In this document: positions 31,035 to 64,000 of the stretch, piece after piece
How positions within the stretch are numbered: position 1 is the first letter of the stretch
Layout of the letters: each line of letters begins with the position of its first letter
Assembly: GCF_033153115.1 (NCBI RefSeq)
Contig: NW_026889757.1
Span: forward strand, 2,294,001 to 2,358,000
Length of the DNA stretch: 64,000 nt
Source: Saccostrea echinata
Taxonomy: Eukaryota
Direction: 5' to 3'
Program-made: the position numbers and the translations under genes
Notes under the pieces: model-generated
What the model was told of the DNA's origin: nothing
What the model saw: the letters and a program-made list of their open reading frames with translations, nothing else
The model's database searches: none

Positions 31035-33506
31035 CTATGATAACTCCAAAACTTTATGCTTTCCATAAACAACGAATATGGACCCTACGTTTTCAACCAG
31101 CACTCGAGGACGATAAAACAGCTGCACATGTGGTACAATCAGCTGTTTGAGTTCTCCCTCAGGAGAGAGTTTATGGATGTTGTTAGATTTGTACCCAGCG
31201 ACATAAATATTGCCATCCCTGTCGGTGGCAATGCCCCTCGGAAACGTCAACTCCGGATGGTCGTACTGGAACACGATTGCCCCAGCATTGGTAATGCAAT
31301 AAAATGAACCGTTGTTGCAGGAATCGGAGTAATATATCCGGTTTTGATCCGCTGGATGAACGGTTTGAACTTTCTCTCCAGTCACATGAAGTATTGATTT
31401 TCTTTTCATTGTTAGATCGTCTTCAACTATCCAAATCTCCAAATGTTTTAAGCAAGCCACAATGACAATGTTTCCAACGTTGGTGATGCCATAACATTCA
31501 TGCTTCGTCAAGTGGAGCTGTTGAAAAACTACAGCATTGTCCCACTGAAGGAGCACTATCTTTCGCTGTTGTGGAAAGGTTATTACCAGAGAGTAGCCAT
31601 CTCGGTCAGTAGGAACTTCTACAAGATCCCAAGGATTCCCTTGTAAATGGTGAATATTGAGCGAGTTATCACGATTTCCATTGTCATAGTAGGCCCGAAT
31701 TTCGCGGCTGATATAGTCAGCCAAGACCAAGCGCCCTTCGATTACTGTGGCACCGGTGATTGTGCTACTCTGAAACCTAATGACAAGAAATCCTTGTTTT
31801 AACTTCATGTGAAGAGCTTCCGACCTAGGTGTTGGCTGAGGAGATTGTAGTTCCAGTTTTCTCCAACTACCAGAGCCTGGTACGTACGGAACTTCTGGTT
31901 TGATCTTGGTGTGCATTTCGACAACGCTCCCCATGGAATCCAGTTGAACGATGATGTCATTAAATTCAACGTGAATTGAACTATTTTGCATGATTAATGT
32001 TCTGTGGTGCATTTTCTCTGCTAAAATGTTAGACTGCTGTCCTATACCTGGCAGCTCAATAAATAATTGCACCCCTATTCCTTCGTTCAGTAATAGCTCA
32101 AGCAGACTCTGGTAAAATAAAAGCGTTTCTCTCTTCTTCTCAAAGATTCCGATCTCAGTTTGAATTTCGAACTCTTTCTCTTTCTGTTTCAGAGTCAACT
32201 CATCCATTAGTTTCTTTTCCAAATTATTGAAATGGTTTGAAACTCTCATCCTCAAGGCTGTGATAGCATCCTCATCGTTTTTGCGATAACTTAACAGATC
32301 GGATAGATTTTCGCCTAGTTTGTCTAGCATGTCCACAGATTTCTTTTCCAAATCTTGCAGTTTATCTTTTAATTCTTGTGCGTATTCGCTCTTTCGAAGT
32401 TCCTCTGCTTCAGAATCGGCAGTGACCAAACCCGGACATTCACGATGATAGTTTTTCCTGCATGTGTCACAAACCGCGACATCATGGTCCTCACAGTAAA
32501 ACTTAAGTTTCTGAAGAGAGTGAACTTCACAGAATCCTGGCGAGTACGCTGAATCGACGTCGTTGGAAACGTCCTTGATGCTTCTAACTCGGTGAACATC
32601 ACGTGAGGTCAGGTTGTTGTGGTAGGCAGCATGATCATTACAGAGGGACTCCGTGCAAAAATAACACCAGAATTCTGATGTTGTCGTTTTTCCATCTTTT
32701 GCGCAGGGAATGCACTTCTTTATATTCCTTCTAGCGACAATATTCAAAATAAAGTGATTGGTCGGCAGTAAATGAGCGACTTCTTTAGGAGGAACAGTTG
32801 ATCTTCTTCCAGGTTGAAATTCTTTACAAACTGGGCAGCGGATACGAAACGATTTTGCATTTCCTTGACTTTTCCGGAAGTAATCCCCAATGCAACTTTC
32901 ACAAAACGTATGCAAACATGGAAGATACTTTGGTATGGAAAACTCCTTTTTGCAAATCGGACAGATTGTTATGTCTCCATCATACTTATAAATGTCTTCC
33001 TCGCTCTCTGGAAGATACTGACGGTAGTTTCGCTCTGGTTGAGGCGGGCGAATTTTTGCACTAATTTGCTCCTTGTCCTTCTTAATTTGTTTCTTATCCT
33101 CTCTCATTTGGGTGTCACCGGTGTTTGAGTCTCCATTCCCTTTATCTATACCTACATCAAGCACTGTTTGGTTGCCGTTGGGTTTTAATATGTTGTTACT
33201 CTTTTCAGATGCATTGTTACTCAGCTTTAAGGACAGTTTAGATCCAATTTTTTCCTCGGGTTTCAGAGACTTTTCCGAGTCATTCCCCTTTTCAGACTTC
33301 GTGTTACTCAACGTTGATTTATTTCGTCCATCTTCTTTCTTCTTGCCCACACTGGGTAAAGTCAACTCTTGTAACCCAGCATTTGATTTAGGTCCATCGT
33401 CTTGACCGTGTTGACTTTCTTTTTCTCGATCAAAAGACCCTTCTCCTTTGATGACTTGATCTGGCGGTTTGGAATCTTGGACCTCAACGCTGACCGTACC
33501 AGACAT
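31035..33506 (-). CDS. Intronless tripartite-motif E3 ubiquitin ligase (RING, two B-boxes, coiled coil, NHL-like beta-propeller; 823 aa)
   Basis: Single ORF with first ATG at 33506. RING CPIC..PCLHTFCESC..CPVC; B-box CIPC..WCYFCTESLCNDH..H..H; B-box CEVH..YCEDHDVAVCDTC..HREC; heptad-rich segment; C-terminal repeats such as FPRGIATDRDGNIYVAGYKSNNIHKLSPEG. Confidence 0.9.
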   Translation of the reverse strand: MSGTVSVEVQDSKPPDQVIKGEGSFDREKESQHGQDDGPKSNAGLQELTLPSVGKKKEDGRNKSTLSNTKSEKGNDSEKSLKPEEKIGSKLSLKLSNNASEKSNNILKPNGNQTVLDVGIDKGNGDSNTGDTQMREDKKQIKKDKEQISAKIRPPQPERNYRQYLPESEEDIYKYDGDITICPICKKEFSIPKYLPCLHTFCESCIGDYFRKSQGNAKSFRIRCPVCKEFQPGRRSTVPPKEVAHLLPTNHFILNIVARRNIKKCIPCAKDGKTTTSEFWCYFCTESLCNDHAAYHNNLTSRDVHRVRSIKDVSNDVDSAYSPGFCEVHSLQKLKFYCEDHDVAVCDTCRKNYHRECPGLVTADSEAEELRKSEYAQELKDKLQDLEKKSVDMLDKLGENLSDLLSYRKNDEDAITALRMRVSNHFNNLEKKLMDELTLKQKEKEFEIQTEIGIFEKKRETLLFYQSLLELLLNEGIGVQLFIELPGIGQQSNILAEKMHHRTLIMQNSSIHVEFNDIIVQLDSMGSVVEMHTKIKPEVPYVPGSGSWRKLELQSPQPTPRSEALHMKLKQGFLVIRFQSSTITGATVIEGRLVLADYISREIRAYYDNGNRDNSLNIHHLQGNPWDLVEVPTDRDGYSLVITFPQQRKIVLLQWDNAVVFQQLHLTKHECYGITNVGNIVIVACLKHLEIWIVEDDLTMKRKSILHVTGEKVQTVHPADQNRIYYSDSCNNGSFYCITNAGAIVFQYDHPELTFPRGIATDRDGNIYVAGYKSNNIHKLSPEGELKQLIVPHVQLFYRPRVLVENVGSIFVVYGKHKVLELS

Positions 33507-34160
33507 AATCACTCCAGTCTATGATTTACGAGTGCGTGCAGCTTTCCACTACATCGAGAATGTTATTTCTTCAAAAAAAGTATCTTGTTACATAAGTATT
33601 GACGTACTATGGCATTTTTTGTTTCATGTACATAGAGAGAAAGATTTTAATGATAAAATATTATCTGTCGACAGAAGATACGAGAAAAACAAAGCCCTCT
33701 TTAAATTCAGCAGGTACTGCATTGTGAAATGATTGTATAGATGTCTATGTTGACAGGTCGAACAACCAGATCGTTTCTTAAATGTCTTATTATGATCGAC
33801 ATTTGGTCCTTTAGTTTTACCCATGATCTATACATGTACTTAAAAAAAAACACCACGAAATGTGCATTTAAAAGAATCGTTTTCCTATATGTTACTTGTT
33901 TAAGGATAAATAACACATTTTTTTTTCAGAAATCAGCAATAAATTAAATAGATTTTTTTTCTTTAAATAAGTTGTATAATGTTTGCCAGAGTAAGTCGAA
34001 ATTTTGTATAATGTTATAATAATTTTAATAATGTGCGGAAATATTTGTGTAGGTTTATAAAGAATATGGCACAAAGTTGCATATTTAAATACCAACGAAA
34101 ACTTACAATTTCATAATATTTTAGGGATTCATTATTCTAGTAATCTCTGTTCAAATCAGT

Positions 34161-35695: not shown

Positions 35696-38600
35696 CTAAG
35701 AGTCATTCAAATATTCCAAGAAACTCCCTATGGACGGAAGATCAACATCGCCTTTTTGATGCGTACCTCGTCTGTTTCGTGGATTTTCCACGATTTTCAT
35801 GTGAATAGAGGCCTCGATATCGTATTCCACTCTTTCGTCAGGACAAAATCTATGAGGCATGGCACAGGATGGCCCTGCAATGGTTGTGATAGCAATGTTA
35901 CTTGCATTTTGAAAAACTCCAAAATTACTCCCTTGAGGAGAGAAATGTGAATTTTGTTCGGATGCATTGCATCGGACGGAAAACTTGACTCCTCTATCCG
36001 GTTTCACGCATCCGTTCGAAAAATACTGGTTTTGCACATGACTTATAGGTAGATTATGGTAATTAGCAAATCCAGCACTATTTTGGCTTCTGTCGAACTG
36101 ATCTGGCAAGGTTTGCATTGGTTGATGAACACATGTTAAATTCGTTGGGTTGTGACCCTGTTGGGGATAAATATGTTGGTTGAAAGAATAATTTGCTACT
36201 TTTTGGGGAGAATATGGCGGCGAAGGAGGAAAATTATAAACGTTAACATTGGGTGGCCCAGCGGAATAATTTGGCGGCACTGCTGCATTCCATTGTTGCT
36301 GAGGGGTTTGTTCCATAGGGTTGAATAACATGCTGTTGGGGTAGTTCATCGTATGACCACAGGTTGTGTAAAAATTTTCCTGTGGTTCCGCCTTTATCAT
36401 TTGAGTTCCGTTACTGCATGGTTTAAAGGTCGTAAAAGAATCGACAGATGATGCAACATACTGCTGGCAAGAGTTTTGCACTGGGTTGTACATACTGTAC
36501 TCGGATTTTATCACAGTCTTCTCTATCTGTTGTCGTCGCTTGAATTCCTGAAACTGCAGTTGCTTTTCACGTTGTGTGATTTTGTGTGCAACATGCGTGG
36601 AGGGCAACACTGGGGAATGACGGTCTGACATCATATGCCAGCTTGATGGACAGGTTACCAGTGGTGTATAAAAAGAGAGTGACACGTCTTCAGTAAATCC
36701 CATATGTGGAGTGCAGAAGTTACTGACTTTCTGCATCCCATGAATGTCTTCATTGTGGTTTTCGGGGTCGGATCTATGGCCACCATTACTATAGTGGCCA
36801 TTTTGTAGAAAGAATTGAAGGTCGCCTATGGCGTATCGGTGACGAAGTGCTGTTTCTTGCTGTAAAAATGTACTGTCCTCCACTCTACAACAAGAAATAA
36901 ACACTTTATTAGAAAATAATTGTTTTTGATCTAAAAAAAAAAAAACATTAAAAAAGCATCCGTTTACCTGACGGGACAGTGCGTGAACACGATGGAAAAT
37001 TTCTTGGAATTTTTGCTGATGACCTTTCCCCTGCTGTGCAGCCAAACCCACTTCCCATTCCGAGTCTCGATGCGGAAGTACATCGTTTGTACCTCGGTGC
37101 TATCCATTACTGAAAGAATGGTTCTTATTAACACAAGTAATACATTAACATTATATTAGAATAAAAAAAATTACACTATCCTTACGTACATGTTTTGTGA
37201 CAAGCAGCAAAAGTCACAAGGTCTTCAGGGTGGACATATTTGTAGAGTGTGACCTCATTAAGTTCATCAGCGTTGTATCCAATTATGTCGGATGCTCTTT
37301 ATAGAATAAAAATAAAAACATTCCCAATCATTTTAATGTTTATTTATGAACAGGACATCGGGAATAATAAAACGATTGCAACTTGTGTAGAATCATCATA
37401 CTTCTTATCCAGTTCTCGAATGGTAAGGTCCATATCATGCTTACTCCAGAAGACATTTTGTTTGACGTCATTAGTGAGGTCGTTTCCGGTCAACATAAAT
37501 GGCTGACAGAAGAGCAGCATGATGTGAGGCTGGTTTCGACTATTTTTCAGTGAAAATTCCGGAATATCTTCAATTTTCCCAGAGCAGTGAATTTTCTTTA
37601 AGAAAGGAAAAACAATCATCCATTAGGCTACTGAAGGTTAAGAAAGATAGTAAAATCGACACTTTAGGGGTTCTGAAGGAATTTAGAAGATCTTACCAGG
37701 TAACCAGCAGAAGTACCATTAAAACACTTCATTCGACAAACAAATGATATATTCACAGTCTTTGACTGGAAATTATCTGAAATCTAATAATAAAACTTTA
37801 TTCATGATATTATACAGCACTGAGTTATTCTTGAAAGTTTCAGTTATTCCAGGGACCTATATAGTAGTATAATATATAGGTCCCTGGTTATTCTTTCTTG
37901 AAAAAAAATATTACCGGGTATGTGAATGTACATGTGAAGCGAGTATTTGAAATCGGCAATATAAAACACTTTATTCACCTGTGTAACGGAAGTGATGTGT
38001 CGCTCTAAAACATTTTTCATATTGTCGTGATCATCTGGATGTACAATGCCGTACAGACAACGATGCATCAAATCCACCTGAACGTATAAAAATTACTTAT
38101 ACGCATGAATAGCATGGAATTAAGAGATGGTAATGTTTTCTCTGGGATAAATTCATAGGAATTTTGCATCGTATTTGTTAAATTAAGTTATATATCAACG
38201 AGGGTATTCAATGTATGAAAATTATTTCATGAGTGGGTCAAGATTTTTATATATGTTCTACGAGTGCGAAGCACGAGTAAAAACATTTTTGAAAATTCAT
38301 ATTTCAGGAGTGAAATAATTTCATATCCAACCACAGAACATTGAATTTTCTTGGTTTTTTTTTACTCCTACCTTTTCGTATTTTATCATAAGATATGACG
38401 TCATAACAGCGGTTGTGAGACGCAATATTTAGCTATTGAAATAGGCCCTAATTACAACAATTTGGACAAACTTTGGCAGTTTTATCTGTGTTAGGATGGT
38501 TTATTTACCTTTACATCTTATAACGGGAAGTGTGTTCTGTATAGCACTCTTTATGAAGGGCTGGAAATCTCAAGTTTTGCCGCACTTTTGATATTTCTAT

Positions 38601-41600
38601 TTCCACAGTGAATAAATATCACTTTTAATGTTTTAACGTTTAATGTTAATCTTTTATTCAGTGCACAGGTTAAACTATTTTACCATTCAAAATAATAAAT
38701 GCCTTTACTCCATCATAAGAGCGGAGAATCTAGTAAATATTTTTTAAGATATATTAAGATCGAATATAAATATTTCCAGCAAAGGCGACAGGTATACAGA
38801 GAAATAACATAAATTGAAATTAACCACTATGCAACATTTTTTTTATCGCTAGATATAAAAAAGAGACTACTTTTGGTTAAGAAAATTCTTAAGAAGAGAC
38901 CCCGCTTTCTGTTTGTTTTTGATTTTTAGCACCTTATCTTTCATAATATTTTTTCAATGCATTCCTCACTCTGGCTGTTCAGTACATGTTTGATATTAAT
39001 TAAATCAGATAAATTACATAAGACTTACCTGATTAAATCCTAGATACTGTAGGACATTATCTGAAGCATATAACAGAGTCCCATCAGTTGACGCGGCCAG
39101 AACAAAACCATCAAGTATCTGAAAATAATCTCGGAAATAAATATTCTATACTTTGTTCTAATTTTACATACGACTATAGCATTTCCGATGTAAATAAAGA
39201 TGGTCTATGCGTTTGTTATCCACACACTTCTGCCTGGGCCGTGTCGTGTCCTTTATCATAATGTTTATGGACAGGATATTACATACACTGAAGAAAATGA
39301 TGATACAACTCACAAGAATAGGAGAAGGAACGATATTCAATTGATAGCTAACGAGGTAAACAATATAAATACACGTGCCCCTCCCCCTTTCTGGTGCAAA
39401 GAAAAATGGATTGTACCTTCACTATGAACAGATGATGAAGAGTCTACAATTAGGTTTTGCTGTTGTTCATTTTTAATGAATAATTATCATTTATACTATT
39501 GACATATGTACAAACAAGTACTAATGATTATTAACTAAATATTAAATGATTTAGGTTCACTCAGAGTACCAGTTTCGAAAGGCCGTTCTATCACGGACTG
39601 TAGAGGATGATATTCAACGCATGGGAAACGACGACACACTCCCCGACTTTGAGTTTGGCTGTGTTAGACTCCCGGAGGGTAATCCTTTCTCAGTAGAGAG
39701 AATCGCTCTCTGGTTAGGAGCAGGAAACACTGGATTTACACTTGTGTGTGAAAAATCGGAAAACAGACTTCTTGCAGAAAACGTTTTGAAAATTCTTATA
39801 AGGTTTATTCAGGAGCATGTACGAGTTTTGAATCAACCCTCGGAAGCGAGACTGAAGAGTGACAAAATTGCCCTTATTCTCAATCGGTTTTTGCCAAACG
39901 GGAACCTGCTTTTTATGAACCATCGTGTTGTCAGACAATTAGAAAAAGATGTTGAAAGTTTGATGAAGTTATCATGAATTTATTATCTAATCTGAGTTGT
40001 TAGATAGTATTTCAAATCTATATATTTCATTAAACGGGTTGTTTGAAAAATAAGTGTGTAAACTTGATATCCAATAAGTTCACCATGGTAATTTTTTTTT
40101 AATATACCCAGCCACTTAAGTTTTCAGTGTAAAAAGAAACTGTTAATTTGACATCTTAGTTTTGATTTTTATAAATAAAAAAAATAGATATATTGATATA
40201 TTGCATATACCTGAAATATATTTCTGCCACAGAAGAATTCTTCCACAACCTGATGTCTTTCTTCATTACCGCCTAGTTCCCCATTTTGTAGTGAAGGGGT
40301 GATTTTTTCGTATGCTGTTAAAATGTATACAAATACATATGAAAATTATTTCACTTAACATAATGATGTTGATAAACTATGAATGAACTTATTTCACCTT
40401 ATATGCATTTGCAACTTTATATTCTTTTTGATTCTGAAAAAATACGGAGTTATAGAGGGAGAAAATGCCGTGTTCAAACTGATTTCTGTTTGAAATTGTC
40501 ACCATGCTTCCTCATCACAAATTATCTTATAAACTGAACTGTAGTTCTCTATAGTCATTCAATAATATATCAAATTTGTCACAACTTTTATGTTTATGTA
40601 ATTTTTCCTTTGTTTCAAGATTTAAATTTAATTTAGAAGGTCATGGAACACAAGAATATTTTTATAGCTTAAATGTAAGAATAATTAATGAGAACATCTG
40701 CTTATCGACCATGTGCTTATACCATTTAAATCCTGTGTACAGTCTAGAAATTGATTTTTTCAAGAACCCTTTTAAGTTTGCTATACTGGGAAAAGATATG
40801 TTTTGCAAAATATTTCTTTGTTTAGTGGAAACTTTTTCATTATGCAGCGCGAGGTTATTCTGGATCAGTTAGACACGTGAGAAGTAAACGGAAGATTTAT
40901 ATTTCAAGTTTTGGTAAATATCTTTTCTCAGTTCAAAGAAAACAATTGTTTGAAGCAAAATAGAAGATGGAGTACGGCTTGAAAAGTTCGAAGAATTGCA
41001 CTGCAAATAATACCCGAATCAGACACAAATTGATCAATAAATTCCTATAAAGCTCTGCTATTTAATTTATGAAAAACAAGGCACAATATTTGATAAAGGA
41101 GATTAGGAACTGTGCTTAGATTTTGGACAAACTGCTTGGAGTGTTGGACAAACATTTCAACATTAAAATACCCCAAGCTTCTTCCCTATCGTTCATCGCA
41201 GGTTGTTGAGGGGTGCGAATTCCCCGTTCCGGAACCGGTCGTCCCGTGCCTGACCGCGGTGGTTTGTAGACGCGCCGTGATGCTGTCATCAGGTGATAGC
41301 GTCACCGATAAATTTCCCCGTCAATAGAGTTAAAGTGGAATTGAAAACTGTTTAGCCATCTAAGACAGACGACACTTCTTGGTGTCTTGTCGTGTCATCC
41401 AGTCATAAATGGTCAACGGGACGACGGCACCTCACTGTGCGATATCCTCGTAAAGTATTCAATCTTTAGATAGCATAATTTACATTACTATAACTTTCAA
41501 TAATATGTTTCATCCATAAAGAAAACTAAGTATATTAATTAATTGCTGAAATCAATTGAAGACATAATGCAAGACCCCTCAAATTTTTTTATATCTCTGT

Positions 41601-59542: not shown

Positions 59543-62500
59543 ATGAAGATCCACGTTTTGTGTCTGTTTCTTTTGCTGGGTCTTACGACCACATCTTCAG
59601 TAAGTTTTTATCTATATTTTTCCCCGTTGCAAAAAAAATCTTTACAGCTTTCTCTTTTCATTTCAATCTACATGCGTAGATACAATTTACAAACGGTTCT
59701 GCTTATTACAGGAGAAAACGGTGTACAAGGTCACCACGATTCTTGTAAGTACTATCAATTTATGTCGTATGTGTACTCTGTTTTTCTTATTAATTATTGT
59801 GGGAAAACTGCTATATGACTACATATATTCATTATGTATCGTGCAGCGTAGCAATAAAATGAAATGCAAATGGATGTGTGTTTAAATTGCCCTATGTCTC
59901 CGTTGCTTTACCTTGTAATATACCTTTTTTAGTTGGGACATGAGGGGGATATCGTATACCATGAAATTATTTACACTTCATAACAATATCTAAATACATT
60001 TAAATGAAGTCACGGGATGAATGATCATGATTCCCAAATCAGAGATTTAAAAGTTGACAAAGAACCGAAGCATGCAAATTCGAGAATTCAGTGTAGAGTT
60101 CTGGTTTAAACTAGCCATTTTATCATAAATGCCAGTGGCGGATTTAAGGGGGGCGCACCCGGCGCGCACCCCCTAAAATTGTCAAATTTAGCATAAATCA
60201 TAGTTTCGTCGAGAAAATGTAAAAATGTCTACTTGGTAGACCTCATTTTTACCCTACAAAATCTCTAGAATCCAGAAGCTTCCGGGGGCTTCGCCCCCCT
60301 GGATCCCCACCAGGGCTTTGCCCTGGACCTACCGGGGGGCTCAAGGCGGCCCCAGACCCCCTGCCTACTTTTTGCGGCCCCTCTAACTTCAATTCCTGGA
60401 TCCGCGCCTGAGTGCGCAAAATTTAAACTTATGTCATATGCATATGATTTATTATAGTGATTCAAACTCCTACAGTAAACCTATCTGCATTCTTTACAAT
60501 GCTTCATACGAAGGTATAGCATACCATACAGAAGGATATGCTTACAATCTACGCGTGATCTATGCCCATTGCTAGCATTTACACGTGATTTCTCGTGGTA
60601 TATACCTGATAACATTGGATATTCACATAAATTAGCATGATCCTTCTTAATGGTGCTCGTGACTGTACACTGTAAAATATTTAAAACGTTGAGATTTTGT
60701 TTTGTCAATTCTGCATTATTTACTCAAAGCACGAACCACATGGGGTTATACTTAACCACTCATATACTATAAAATACATTTCATAGTAAAGGTGGTCAAA
60801 AAGAAAAATGGGCCGTGACTAGCTTATAGCCCCTGTACACTAACCGGAAGAAAAACAACAAGGAAATATATGCTTTCTTTTCATATCTAATTTTACCGCT
60901 ACAAGCGTTTGCGCTTATAAACTTTGTTGTTATATAAGGTTGCGTGGTAGTGCTCCTGAATATAATTAATCAACTTACAAAGAAAATGACAAAGGCCGCA
61001 GAACCTTCTTTATTTTTTAAGACATCACAGCAATAATATGGTAACTTTCATTATTTTCAGAATAAACCTTTTGTAACTCAAAAGGTTGGAAATCCTTCAG
61101 AATTCCAAGGCCTTATACCCGATTTGTTGAAGAGGATAGAACCAATTATTAATGTAACCTTTGACATTAAACATGTAGGAGATTTCAAGTACGGCTATCA
61201 GGATAGGGATGGGAACTGGACTGGTATGATAGGAGAACTTGTAAAAGGGGTAGGATTTCAGTTTACATTATATTTACCTGGTTGGTTGCGTCTCTTTGAG
61301 AATATTTCACTCATGTTGGGACGCCACCAGTTGCTGGTGTGAAGAATCTCTTTTTTTATGGCAACATCTACTGCAATTCGGGACCTCGGTTTATAACTTC
61401 TCATCCAGGTACCCTTATCCGAACAACCGGTGTCCATTTTCCACCAGCAGTTGGATTTGAACCCACAGTTCAATTCCTTACTCCGAGACACACACACACA
61501 TGTTTCTTACAAGTTTGAATGTTTCCTAGCTCTCTAATTGGCTGAAAACATTAATTTATGTGCACTCGGCCTTCCAGGTGAATTTCACATTTATTTTTTG
61601 TACATTGTAATAAAAGTAGATCCGGAACTTCCAAATTGATACGATTGGTTATGTATATTTTTTGTCGTCTCCTGTCTCTCACTGCGTTTCACTAAGATTT
61701 CAGCAGACGTAACCAACCAAGAAAGATGACGTTGTTTGCTTTTAAAAAGAGTTTTTATCAATTAATAATTGAATCCAATTTAAAACAATTATATACTCCT
61801 TTTTGGTCAATAAAATCATCAAATAACTTTGGATATATAACTTTCATTAAACAATAATTTTATAGATATTGCTCTGACAAGAGTTGGGAAGCAAAAGGGC
61901 GAAGCAAAAAGGGTTCATACTTTTCATTGTAGGTAGCAGATATTGCTGCAGCGTCCATTACCGTGACAGCAGAGCGAGCAACCGCCATCGACTTTTCGCA
62001 TCCCTTCATGGAATCGGGAATTTCCATTGTTCTTAAGCGCCCTATTGCGAGGGGGTGGCAGGCTATAAAGGGTTATGTCTCCTTTCTAGAGCCATTTACC
62101 GTCGGAGTTTGGATCGCCTTGCTCTTCTCCTGTTTAATCATTCCCATTCTGTACGGATTGATTATGCAGTAAGTAAAAGGGCGCGAGTGTCACAACCAGA
62201 AACATCACTTTGATATTCCTAAACATGGAATTGCATGTAACATGTGTCATTGTTTTGGTCTTGTCAACTCATATCTATTTACGATTTTTTTGTTGTTGTT
62301 GCCAGTTTTGACCCTATGGAAGATGAAGCTGAAACTTCTTTTCTGAAGAATATTGCCCGAGCAGTTCCTGTTGTCTTCTACAGATTTTGCTTACAAGGTT
62401 AAATTTCACGGTGTATAGTAGTTACAAATCTGTAGCTCGCTGGTCTGAAAAAAAAAATAGTAAGGACGAACAGAGAGCTACAGCGCCACACATTTAAAAA

Positions 62501-64000
62501 GTGTACTATATTTATTGCGCACAAAAAGTGCACTGTTTCTCGATTTATTTCTCCGTTTGTAGCAAAATATTACCAACCGTGTGTTCCTAATATATTCTTT
62601 CACTAATTCCACACTAAGTATTAGTCATGTACGAAGTACGTTGGACCGAACTGTCTTGCCACCCAAAATGGCACTATAGGTAGGCGAAATATTTCAGGCC
62701 CTGGTGGGCTATTAACAACGGTTTTGGCAAATGTTTTATTGTGGAAGTAGTGAAAAAATATATTTGGAACACACGGTTTGTAATATTTTGAGATGGCAGT
62801 TTAATTATACGGAGAAATAAATTGAGAAACAACGCACTTTTTTGTGCGCAATAAATATACACTTTTTTTCAATGGGTGGCACTGTAGCTCTCTGGTCGTC
62901 AATCCCAATTTTTTTTTTCAGACCAACGAGCTACAGATCTGCAGCTAATATCCACCAAACTAGTTAAAAAAGACATTTTAGCGTTCTTCGACTCATTTAA
63001 GTTTTCAGATTTAAGCTTGATTGAATTAGTTTATCTGTATATCTGGATAGTTTTCTTCAAAGTTATCACAGATGCACATACTCCTACGCCACTACTACCA
63101 TACTCCGCTTCACTGAACATACAACGCTTTTACGTACTTTTATGTTTAGCACACTTAATTTGTATTAGTCAATGAATTAATTATCATCATCTTCTCTCTA
63201 CTAGAGAGTTTTAACACAGCAGCTTAATTAAATTATTTCTGATCATCTCATATTGAGTTGTAATATCCTGGAATACAAATGTATATGTTTAAATGGGTTG
63301 AATTAAAACTGCAGGTGTATTTTAAACAGTATAAATTCAACTGGTTAGAATAATTCTTTTATGTGGTAAATAAAGGACTTTACTGATACATACTAAATTA
63401 GATATGTATGCCAATATTGTAGGAAGTCTTGCGCCATCCAAATCTACCTCCAGGGCTGCGAGAGTTGTACTTGCCTTTTGGTCTTTGTTTCTAATCATTT
63501 TGTATGCCACCTGGGCATCAGCCTTTGCTGTATTCATCATGGAAGGAAAACGACAACTTCCGGAATCTCCCCTCCATTCATTTTCCGAGCTATCGAAACA
63601 AACTTCTGTGAAATTTGGAACAGTTAAAGCAGGATCCACTTATAGATACTTCACAAACGCCTTGGATGAGGTGGATAGCCAAATTGGACAACATTTGAAA
63701 AACAATCCAGATCAACTGGTCAAAAGTACAGAAGATGGAATTAAACGAGTTCGAAACAGCAACGGCGATTATGCGTTTATAACAGAAGAAATAGGAGCTA
63801 GGCTAATTGCAGGACAATTGCCGTGTGATCTAATGCTAATTCACCATTCTTTTATACGTAAGTCGTTTTCTTTCGGATGTGCCAAAAACACTAGCACATG
63901 CAGAAATCTAGATATCGCCATCATTAAGCTGAAGACAGATGGAGTGATTCAAGAACTAATAGATAAATGGCTGAATGAGGACGACGTCTGTGACACAGAT
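59543..64000 (+). CDS. Ionotropic glutamate receptor-like protein lacking the amino-terminal domain (3' end beyond the window)
   Basis: Exons 59543-59599 (signal peptide MKIHVLCLFLLLGLTTTSS), 59712-59744 (EKTVYKVTTIL), 61061-61249 (NKPFV..KYG..GNWTGMIGELVKG), 61933-62168 (VADIAAASITVTAERATAIDFSHPFMESGISIV..FLEPFTVGVW, M1), 62306-62397 (M2), 63423->64000 (M3, S2: KFGTVKAGST, EDGIKRVR, YAFITE, PCDL, IKLKTDGVIQELIDKW). All GT-AG and in frame. Confidence 0.9.
60133..60410. mobile_element. GC-rich hAT-like MITE in iGluR intron 2
   Basis: Ends CAGTGGCGGATTTAAGGGG / TTCCTGGATCCGCGCCTG; internal hairpin GGGGGCTTCGCCCCC; no TSD seen. Confidence 0.65.
61281..61488 (-). mobile_element. Truncated, decayed copy of the 30583-type SINE
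   Basis: GAGAATATTTCACTCAT (tail), GGACCTCGGTTTATA..TCTCATCC (Deu-like core), GGATTTGAACCC..TCCTTACTCCG (B box and variable arm). Confidence 0.7.
62419..62947. mobile_element. Long-TIR MITE related to the 6467-9364 element, in iGluR intron 5
   Basis: ~190-bp imperfect inverted arms; the right terminus reads TAGCTGCAGATCTGTAGCTC on the minus strand, and both elements contain CAGAGAGCTACAG. Confidence 0.75.

What the first reader, a model, noticed from the sequence alone, without database searches (positions are those of the whole stretch)
62306..63545. The same iGluR has a rewritten pore loop and gate but an intact glutamate pocket
Seen: M3 reads ARVVLAFWSLFLIILYATWASAFAVF, so the near-invariant SYTANLAAF gate aligns to TWASAFAVF. 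The pore helix reads NIARAVPVVFYRFCLQG where AMPA receptors have NSLWFSLGAFMQQG: W becomes P, an Arg is added, and Leu occupies the Q/R site. Agonist-contact positions are kept (KYG Tyr, T and R of ITVTAER, GST, E of YAFITE) along with the S2 disulfide cysteines (PCD..DVC), and there is an extra Cys pair (GCAKNTSTC). There are no stops or frameshifts, so this does not look like decay. Inference: a ligand-binding but non-conducting, constitutively open, or dominant-modulatory subunit.
Basis: partly seen in the sequence, partly recalled or inferred. Interest (0 to 1): 0.7.

Follow-up and report, generated by a model that had tools for sequence, protein, structure and literature searches.

The report
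Oyster glutamate receptor with rewritten pore
This oyster gene makes a short, spliced glutamate-receptor subunit of the little-studied Phi class, whose members generally have a degenerate gate, but oysters and mussels keep their own fixed rewrite of the pore helix, so it likely forms a channel with unusual gating or ion preference that my literature searches did not find recorded.

Summary
The gene is a spliced, intact 479-residue iGluR with no amino-terminal domain. Its M3 reads TWASAFAVF and its pore helix PVVFYRFCLQG. It is not a lone oddity. A tree built without M2-M3 nests it with two published molluscan Phi receptors (GluFIV; accession matches); it is probably GluFIII by elimination. A degenerate gate and no Gln at the Q/R site are published Phi traits (PMC6307864) and hold here: 0 of 44 other Phi-like proteins have Q586 or a full SYTANLAAF. 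What is specific: Pro578/Tyr582/Arg583 (8 of 8 oyster and mussel sequences, 0 of 44 others) and Trp616 (6 of 6 oysters). The pore loop is more conserved among oysters than the ligand domain (17/22 vs 112/242 invariant, p=0.007); partial dN/dS is 0.37. Best reading (about 50%): a ligand-gated subunit with a remodelled, calcium-poor pore. Main rival (30%): non-conducting. Function is untested.

The parts
59543..59599 (+). Coding exon 1: start codon and hydrophobic signal-peptide-like leader (19 aa)
   Evidence: joint 59599-59712, GT..AG, 4 of 4 runs; signal peptide inferred from hydropathy only
59712..59744 (+). Coding exon 2 (11 aa): start of S1 directly after the leader; no amino-terminal domain
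   Evidence: Pfam PF10613 begins at residue 23 and no PF01094 hit
61061..61249 (+). Coding exon 3: S1, with Y74 (Y450 equivalent) at 61190-61192
61933..62168 (+). Coding exon 4: end of S1 (S101=P478, T103=T480, R108=R485), pre-M1 and M1
62306..62397 (+). Coding exon 5: M1-M2 loop and pore helix M2; P193 (62367-69), Y197, R198 (62382-84), C200, L201 at the Q/R site (62391-93), Q202
   Evidence: helix 184-199 in the AlphaFold2 model
62410..62956 (.). Intronic element with long terminal inverted repeats (MITE-like); not part of the protein
   Evidence: nested inverted pairs I1, I2, I3, I7; spliced out
63423..63535 (+). Coding exon 6, first part: post-filter loop with a 2-residue insertion, then M3; gate 9-mer TWASAFAVF at 63509-63535
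63536..64000 (+). Coding exon 6, continued: S2 with GST (63632-63640), E324=E705 (63785-87), C337, extra pair C355/C362, C392; M4 and the tail lie beyond the window (L016 to 5186, last exon from 5504)

Best explanation
It is an intact, spliced, ATD-less iGluR subunit that groups with the Phi (GluF) class, probably the bivalve subclass GluFIII, and it likely works as a ligand-gated channel subunit with a remodelled pore. Shown: gene structure, splicing, Phi placement, conserved rewrite of M2 in oysters and mussels. Inferred: glutamate or a similar amino acid binds the R485/E705/GST pocket and closes the clamshell, which would pull on M3 and open a pore built as a homomer or with another AKDF subunit. 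Inferred: Leu at the Q/R site, no acidic residue at 590 and an added Arg in the pore helix would make it calcium-poor and insensitive to polyamine block; Tyr582, one turn from the lost Trp578, may refill the helix packing.
For: Phi placement: with M2-M3 columns dropped it lies in a pteriomorph clade (99/96) inside a 35-row clade (99/96) holding Lottia XP_009063422.1 and Octopus bimaculoides XP_014783750.1, both named GluFIV in the supplement of PMC8437780. Pore under constraint: M2+pore loop invariant at 17 of 22 columns in 8 oyster sequences vs 112 of 242 in S1+S2, Fisher p=0.007; Pro/Tyr/Arg fixed in 8 of 8 oyster and mussel rows, 0 of 44 other Phi-like and 0 of 11 AMPA/kainate/delta rows; filter Q587-G588 kept. 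Partial dN/dS 0.37, p=0.008, no change in the gate 9-mer. Model keeps a pore helix 184-199 (block pLDDT 83-86) and matches AMPA LBD-TMD chains (Z 29.2, rmsd 5.7 over 360 residues; isolated LBD Z 29.8, rmsd 1.9 over 252). G653 and T655 predict glutamate preference (PMC6307864 section 7; PMC13648236 passages). Precedent for a degenerate gate motif in tuning subunits of sensory channels: bioRxiv 10.64898/2026.09.30.755715 section 8.
Against: No current has been measured. In GluA2 the A639S change at gate position 4, where this protein has Ser, abolished kainate-evoked homomer current (PMC6626132 passages). The three gate positions called best conserved in PMC6307864 are all changed here. The pore-versus-LBD excess is not significant once mussels are added (11/22 vs 87/242, p=0.25), and conservation could serve folding or a partner surface instead of ion flow. 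The gate 9-mer differs between oysters and mussels (1 of 9 invariant). Ligand residues 653-654 drift among orthologues, and PMC13648236 warns that ligand prediction from these residues is unreliable. The GluFIII label is by elimination, not by accession.
Confidence: 0.5

Rival explanations
1. Ligand-binding but non-conducting (or silencing) subunit: it binds amino acids and signals, buffers or dampens partner channels without passing ions, like vertebrate GluD or the ATD-less kainate-binding proteins.
For: Mid-helix Pro in M2, Ser at gate position 4 (loss of current in GluA2 A639S), Trp at position 2. Scallop GluF genes are ubiquitous and the most highly expressed iGluRs, which does not look synaptic (PMC8437780 section 9). 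Wild-type vertebrate GluD shows no ligand-gated current in oocytes (PMC10861852 passages). Kainate-binding protein properties are recalled, not read (search gave no usable paper).
Against: The pore loop is the most conserved stretch among oysters and Q587-G588 is kept; a dead pore would be expected to drift.
Confidence: 0.3
2. Constitutively open (leak) channel, closed or modulated by ligand.
For: The lurcher position (gate position 8) is Val instead of Ala, and T617 is Ala; A654T at that site makes GluD2 leak (PMC10861852).
Against: The same change in GluA2 (A643T) gave no leak (PMC6626132). Position 8 varies widely among other Phi-like proteins (Ala in only 17 of 44). The residue at T625 is Met or Leu in oysters, which would favour a hydrophobic seal (inference).
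Confidence: 0.08
3. A chemosensory IR tuning subunit that needs the IR25a co-receptor.
For: No ATD and a degenerate gate, as in tuning IRs (PMC2924276 passages; bioRxiv section 8). The genome holds IR25a-like genes (L037, L038).
Against: It nests in a 49-row clade (99/97) sister to AMPA+kainate, apart from L037/L031; forcing it with them is rejected, p-AU 0.0027. Its ligand pocket is iGluR-like. The wider family includes hemichordate proteins, whereas IRs were not found in deuterostomes (PMC2924276).
Confidence: 0.04
4. Decaying duplicate or mis-predicted gene.
For: Only the divergence itself.
Against: Spliced contigs match the pore and gate exons with 0 differing letters in the pieces listed; same motif in Saccostrea, Ostrea, Crassostrea, Magallana and Mytilus records; dN/dS below 1.
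Confidence: 0.01

Closest known systems
Molluscan Phi-class iGluRs (GluF I-IV; Zeng et al. 2021, PMC8437780), most likely bivalve-restricted GluFIII (C. gigas CGI_10003728)
   Same: Groups with two named GluFIV proteins. Its clade holds only oyster, mussel, scallop and ark-shell rows among those named, as GluFIII does in their table. R485 and acidic 705 kept. Two further Phi-like paralogues in this genome (L021, L022) match the three GluF genes listed for C. gigas.
   Different: That paper calls GluF transmembrane domains well conserved and discusses only ligand residues; the Pro/Tyr/Arg pore helix and Trp gate are not mentioned in the section and passages read (its alignment figure S6 was not visible). 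Scallop and ark-shell members of the clade lack these changes.
Phi class as defined by Ramos-Vicente et al. 2018 (PMC6307864)
   Same: Lower conservation of SYTANLAAF in some members; no member with Q586 (section 7). Their Ptychodera GluF is 472 aa with a 50-aa N-terminal part.
   Different: Most of their deuterostome Phi entries have a long ATD; gate positions 2, 4 and 5, which they call best conserved, are all changed here.
AMPA receptors (GluA1/GluA2)
   Same: Best solved relatives by sequence (E 3e-25 for the last large exon) and by fold; same S1-M1-M2-M3-S2-M4 order and core ligand residues.
   Different: No ATD; gate 2 of 9; Leu at the Q/R site; no D590; about 30% identity.
Insect tuning ionotropic receptors (IRs)
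   Same: No ATD, degenerate gate motif, hydrophobic residue at the Q/R position (bioRxiv 10.64898/2026.09.30.755715 section 8; PMC2924276).
   Different: Different clade; iGluR-like pocket; no partner shown.
Vertebrate kainate-binding proteins / Xenopus U1 (properties recalled, not read)
   Same: About 480 aa, no ATD; several orthologues are auto-named 'glutamate receptor U1'.
   Different: No KBP sequence was in my trees; by recall they keep the canonical gate and are a separate vertebrate lineage.

Membership tests
iGluR superfamily | S1-M1-M2-M3-S2-M4 architecture with PF10613 and PF00060 | tested here: met
   (107.6 and 41.1 bits, cut-offs 30 and 30.8); model and fold matches
iGluR superfamily | Ligand-gated ion current | not testable with these tools
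   needs electrophysiology
Phi (GluF) class | Phylogenetic grouping with named GluF proteins, apart from AMPA, kainate and delta | tested here: met
   anchors XP_009063422.1 and XP_014783750.1. Only two anchors, both GluFIV; LG+G4 model; no named deuterostome Phi or Zeta sequence in the tree
Phi (GluF) class | No Gln at position 586 | tested here: met
   Leu201; trait from PMC6307864 section 7
Phi (GluF) class | Arg485 and acidic 705 kept in most members | tested here: met
   R108 and E324 in 8 of 8 oyster and mussel rows
GluFIII subclass | Bivalve-restricted clade; orthology with CGI_10003728 | tested here: inconclusive
   Pteriomorph clade 99/96; Mytilidae and C. gigas have only GluFI and GluFIII in the table; but no named GluFIII sequence could be matched by accession
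AMPA / kainate classes | Canonical SYTANLAAF gate and Gln at 586 | tested here: not met
   2 of 9 and Leu, against 8-9 of 9 and Gln in 11 of 11 reference rows
AMPA / kainate classes | Amino-terminal domain | tested here: not met
   S1 starts at residue 23; spliced contigs join the leader exon to S1
Ionotropic receptors (IRs) | Clade membership with IR25a-like genes | tested here: not met
   (p-AU 0.0027). The IR25a label of L037 rests on recall and on Pro at the Q/R position, as described in the bioRxiv section; rows were chosen after seeing earlier trees
Ionotropic receptors (IRs) | Obligate heteromer with a co-receptor | not testable with these tools
   needs co-expression
Kainate-binding proteins | Clade membership; kainate binding without current | not tested
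   no named KBP in the alignments; search gave no usable paper

The most novel reading that the evidence does not exclude
Oysters and mussels rebuilt the selectivity region of an ATD-less glutamate receptor (Pro, Tyr and Arg fixed in the pore helix, acidic 590 lost) into an anion-permeable or otherwise non-cation glutamate-gated channel, which would be an inhibitory or osmoregulatory iGluR.
Probability: 0.08. Interest if true: 0.85.

Novelty: new variant of a known kind. Interest (0 to 1): 0.45.

Why it matters
I found no functional recording of any Phi receptor in the papers searched (the 2026 survey PMC13648236, section 13, lists none among those expressed), and PMC6307864 leaves the effect of Phi gate changes open. 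This subunit is among the most divergent gates in my sample (1-2 of 9 matches; 8 of 44 other Phi-like rows are as low) and has a pore helix fixed across oysters and mussels, is short, ATD-free and fully defined by transcripts, so it is a ready natural test of how much of SYTANLAAF and the pore helix an iGluR needs. A Pacific-oyster iGluR catalogue lists 12 proteins of 794-1224 aa (PMC10642201), so this 480-aa type is not in it.

Tried and rejected
Complex prediction on four copies of residues 140-250: no verdict (0.22, 0.24; mark 0.32), no evidence either way. Two metagenome scans for orthologue DNA found 0 confirmed of 72 and 0 of 41 stretches, so dN/dS by domain, and for the pore exon, could not be done. 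The look-up of sequencing runs listed no holder on record as RNA; expression rests on spliced contigs, which give no tissue or level. My first gene model (475 aa) read through the last intron; and P0011 correct it to 479 aa, 7 coding exons. I first recalled that vertebrate kainate-binding proteins are Phi; PMC6307864 says Phi is lost in vertebrates, so I dropped that. I first took the C22/C10 gene cluster for IRs; the tree puts it beside a Phi-like paralogue. The pore exon alone has no Pfam hit. No model coordinates were available, so no pore profile was computed. The search of earlier findings gave 3 unrelated notes and nothing by sequence. Paper searches gave nothing on this gene's pore.
Full report
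Observation. The window holds a plus-strand gene from 59543 that runs past the window end. Contigs of 4 of 4 public runs laid join all five introns in the window at GT..AG (at most 3 samples, 2 studies; run type is a guess of the tool), and 4 of 4 join a sixth intron beyond it. The product is P0011, 479 aa: leader, S1, M1, M2, M3, S2, M4, short tail, with PF10613 from residue 23 and no ATD family hit. In GluA2 numbering (partly from PMC6307864, partly recalled): W578=P193, G582=Y197, A583=R198, M585=C200, Q586=L201, Q587-G588 kept, no acidic 590; the gate 9-mer matches SYTANLAAF at 2 of 9. R485, T480, Y450, G653-S654-T655 and E705 are kept, but P478, E402 and Y732 are not.

Relatives. Orthologues occur in Saccostrea cucullata, Ostrea edulis, Crassostrea virginica, Magallana gigas/angulata and Mytilus. 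All carry the rewritten pore helix; oysters have TWA[ST][AS][FY]AV[FY] in M3 and Mytilus SYITSLA[VG]V. Beyond them lies a large family of about 480-aa proteins without ATD in other bivalves, gastropods, cephalopods, chitons, a nemertean, a brachiopod and hemichordates.

Identity. Two family members match accessions named GluFIV (Phi class) in the supplement of PMC8437780: Lottia XP_009063422.1 and Octopus bimaculoides XP_014783750.1. A FastTree of 166 rows and an IQ-TREE of 63 rows (61 chosen by me from those 166, plus two paralogues of this genome), with M2-M3 columns dropped, put the gene in a 12-row pteriomorph clade (99/96) within a 35-row clade (99/96) that holds both anchors. With 13 further iGluR loci of this genome added and 11 rows pruned, it stays in a 49-row clade (99/97) sister to AMPA+kainate; union with the IR25a-like loci is rejected (p-AU 0.0027). 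The paper lists GluFI1, GluFI2 and GluFIII for C. gigas and GluFI and GluFIII for mussels; this genome has two other Phi-like genes (L021, L022). GluFIII follows by elimination, not by accession.

What is class-wide and what is not (6 oyster, 2 mussel, 44 other Phi-like by my grouping, 11 AMPA/kainate/delta rows). Class-wide: no Gln at 586 (0 of 44; Trp 22, Leu 15), no full SYTANLAAF (1-7 of 9 matches), extra Cys pair (18 of 44). PMC6307864 section 7 already reports lower gate conservation in some Phi proteins and no Q586 in any, and leaves the effect open. Specific: Pro578, Tyr582, Arg583 in 8 of 8 oyster and mussel rows and 0 of 55 others; Trp616 in 6 of 6 oysters and 0 of 57 others. Scallop and ark-shell members of the same clade lack them, so the rewrite is on the oyster+mussel branch of this tree.

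Selection. Among 8 oyster sequences the M2+pore loop is invariant at 17 of 22 columns against 112 of 242 in S1+S2 (p=0.007); with 2 mussel rows added, 11 of 22 against 87 of 242 (p=0.25); the gate 9-mer is invariant at 5 of 9 in oysters and 1 of 9 with mussels. A related oyster's contig differs at 91 of 763 bases of exon 6; the table showed 32 of these, covering 104 codons, and I assumed it complete there. They give dN 0.080, dS 0.217, omega 0.37 (p=0.008), none in the gate 9-mer; the M3 part alone has too few changes to judge (omega 0.61 on 7 changes). The pore exon was not covered.

Structure. AlphaFold2 (26 rows; mean pLDDT 77, pTM 0.56) keeps a helix at 184-199 across the proline and M3 at 213-242. 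Foldseek's listed matches are AMPA and kainate receptors; VIA-align gives Z 29.8, rmsd 1.9 over 252 residues to the GluA2 ligand core and Z 29.2, rmsd 5.7 over 360 to an LBD-TMD chain. A model says nothing on whether the pore conducts.

Mechanism. Inferred: the pocket binds glutamate or a similar amino acid (G653 and T655; PMC6307864, PMC13648236, which also warns that such predictions fail), clamshell closure pulls M3, and a pore with a hydrophobic filter tip, no acidic 590 and an added Arg opens with low calcium permeability and no polyamine block. For: the pore loop is the most constrained part in oysters, Q587-G588 and M4 are kept, and insect tuning IRs have a degenerate gate motif within sensory channel complexes. 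Against: Ser at gate position 4 silences GluA2 homomers, the best-conserved gate positions are all changed, and scallop GluF genes are ubiquitous and highly expressed, which also fits a non-synaptic binding role. I give 0.5 to a gated remodelled channel, 0.3 to non-conducting, 0.08 to leak; Phi membership about 0.9.

Papers seen. PMC8437780: passages, section 2.3, supplement table (part 3 and searches; figures not visible). PMC6307864: passages, section 7, supplement 1, cut parts of supplement 3. bioRxiv 10.64898/2026.09.30.755715: abstract and section 8 (supplements closed). PMC13648236: abstract, section 13, passages. PMC10642201: one part with its tables. PMC12226733, PMC6626132, PMC8150855, PMC10861852, PMC11682238, PMC2924276, PMC5225553: passages. 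Searches found no text on this pore helix and no recording of a Phi receptor; alignment figures that I could not see may show the residues, and subscription papers are not covered.

Verdict. A real, conserved, expressed feature; a variant of a known but uncharacterised class.

Noticed in passing
L021:2625-6811 (G000:C29) and L022:3968-7311 (G000:C9): Two further Phi-like paralogues with a WQG pore and partly degenerate gates (AYIANLGSF, CYIANLSNL); both appear to lack a normal GST motif and have an intron at the pore Gly as in this gene. Candidate partners.
   Followed up: partly
L027-L030, L035, L036, L039 (G000:C22, C10, C1): Cluster of iGluR genes, three with LYASSLAAF gates, that group beside the C9 Phi-like paralogue; possibly the mollusc Zeta class of PMC8437780, not tested.
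   Followed up: partly
L037 (G000:C58) and L038 (G000:C16): Two loci with identical M3-region translation of an IR25a-like gene (Pro at the Q/R position); duplicate or haplotype copy.
   Followed up: partly
P0022, P0030 (alignment A1): Proteins with Arg at the Q/R site (FLRQGY in a cephalopod-clade Phi row; LMRQGS in a Logan GluA row whose Magallana counterpart P0028 has Gln), the latter possibly RNA editing or allelic.
   Followed up: no
P0011 residues 453-479: The short C-terminal tail is among the most conserved parts in oysters (19 of 27 invariant) and ends in DMQ or DLQ in oysters and mussels, hinting at a binding partner.
   Followed up: no
window 57782-58881 and 62410-62956: Two non-coding elements with long terminal inverted repeats (MITE-like); the first contains three ~165-nt direct repeats.
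   Followed up: no
window 31035-33518 (-): Single 827-codon open frame with RING, B-box and beta-propeller hits: TRIM-NHL-like gene.
   Followed up: partly
window 39555-39977 (+): Exon of AP-5 complex subunit sigma-1 (PF15001, 176 bits).
   Followed up: partly
window 35696-37099 (-): 467-codon Q/P/N-rich open frame with no Pfam hit; looks like a low-complexity exon of a larger gene.
   Followed up: no
P0010, P0001, P0038: Saccostrea cucullata has at least two copies; two records have Arg at the P478 position of the ligand pocket.
   Followed up: no
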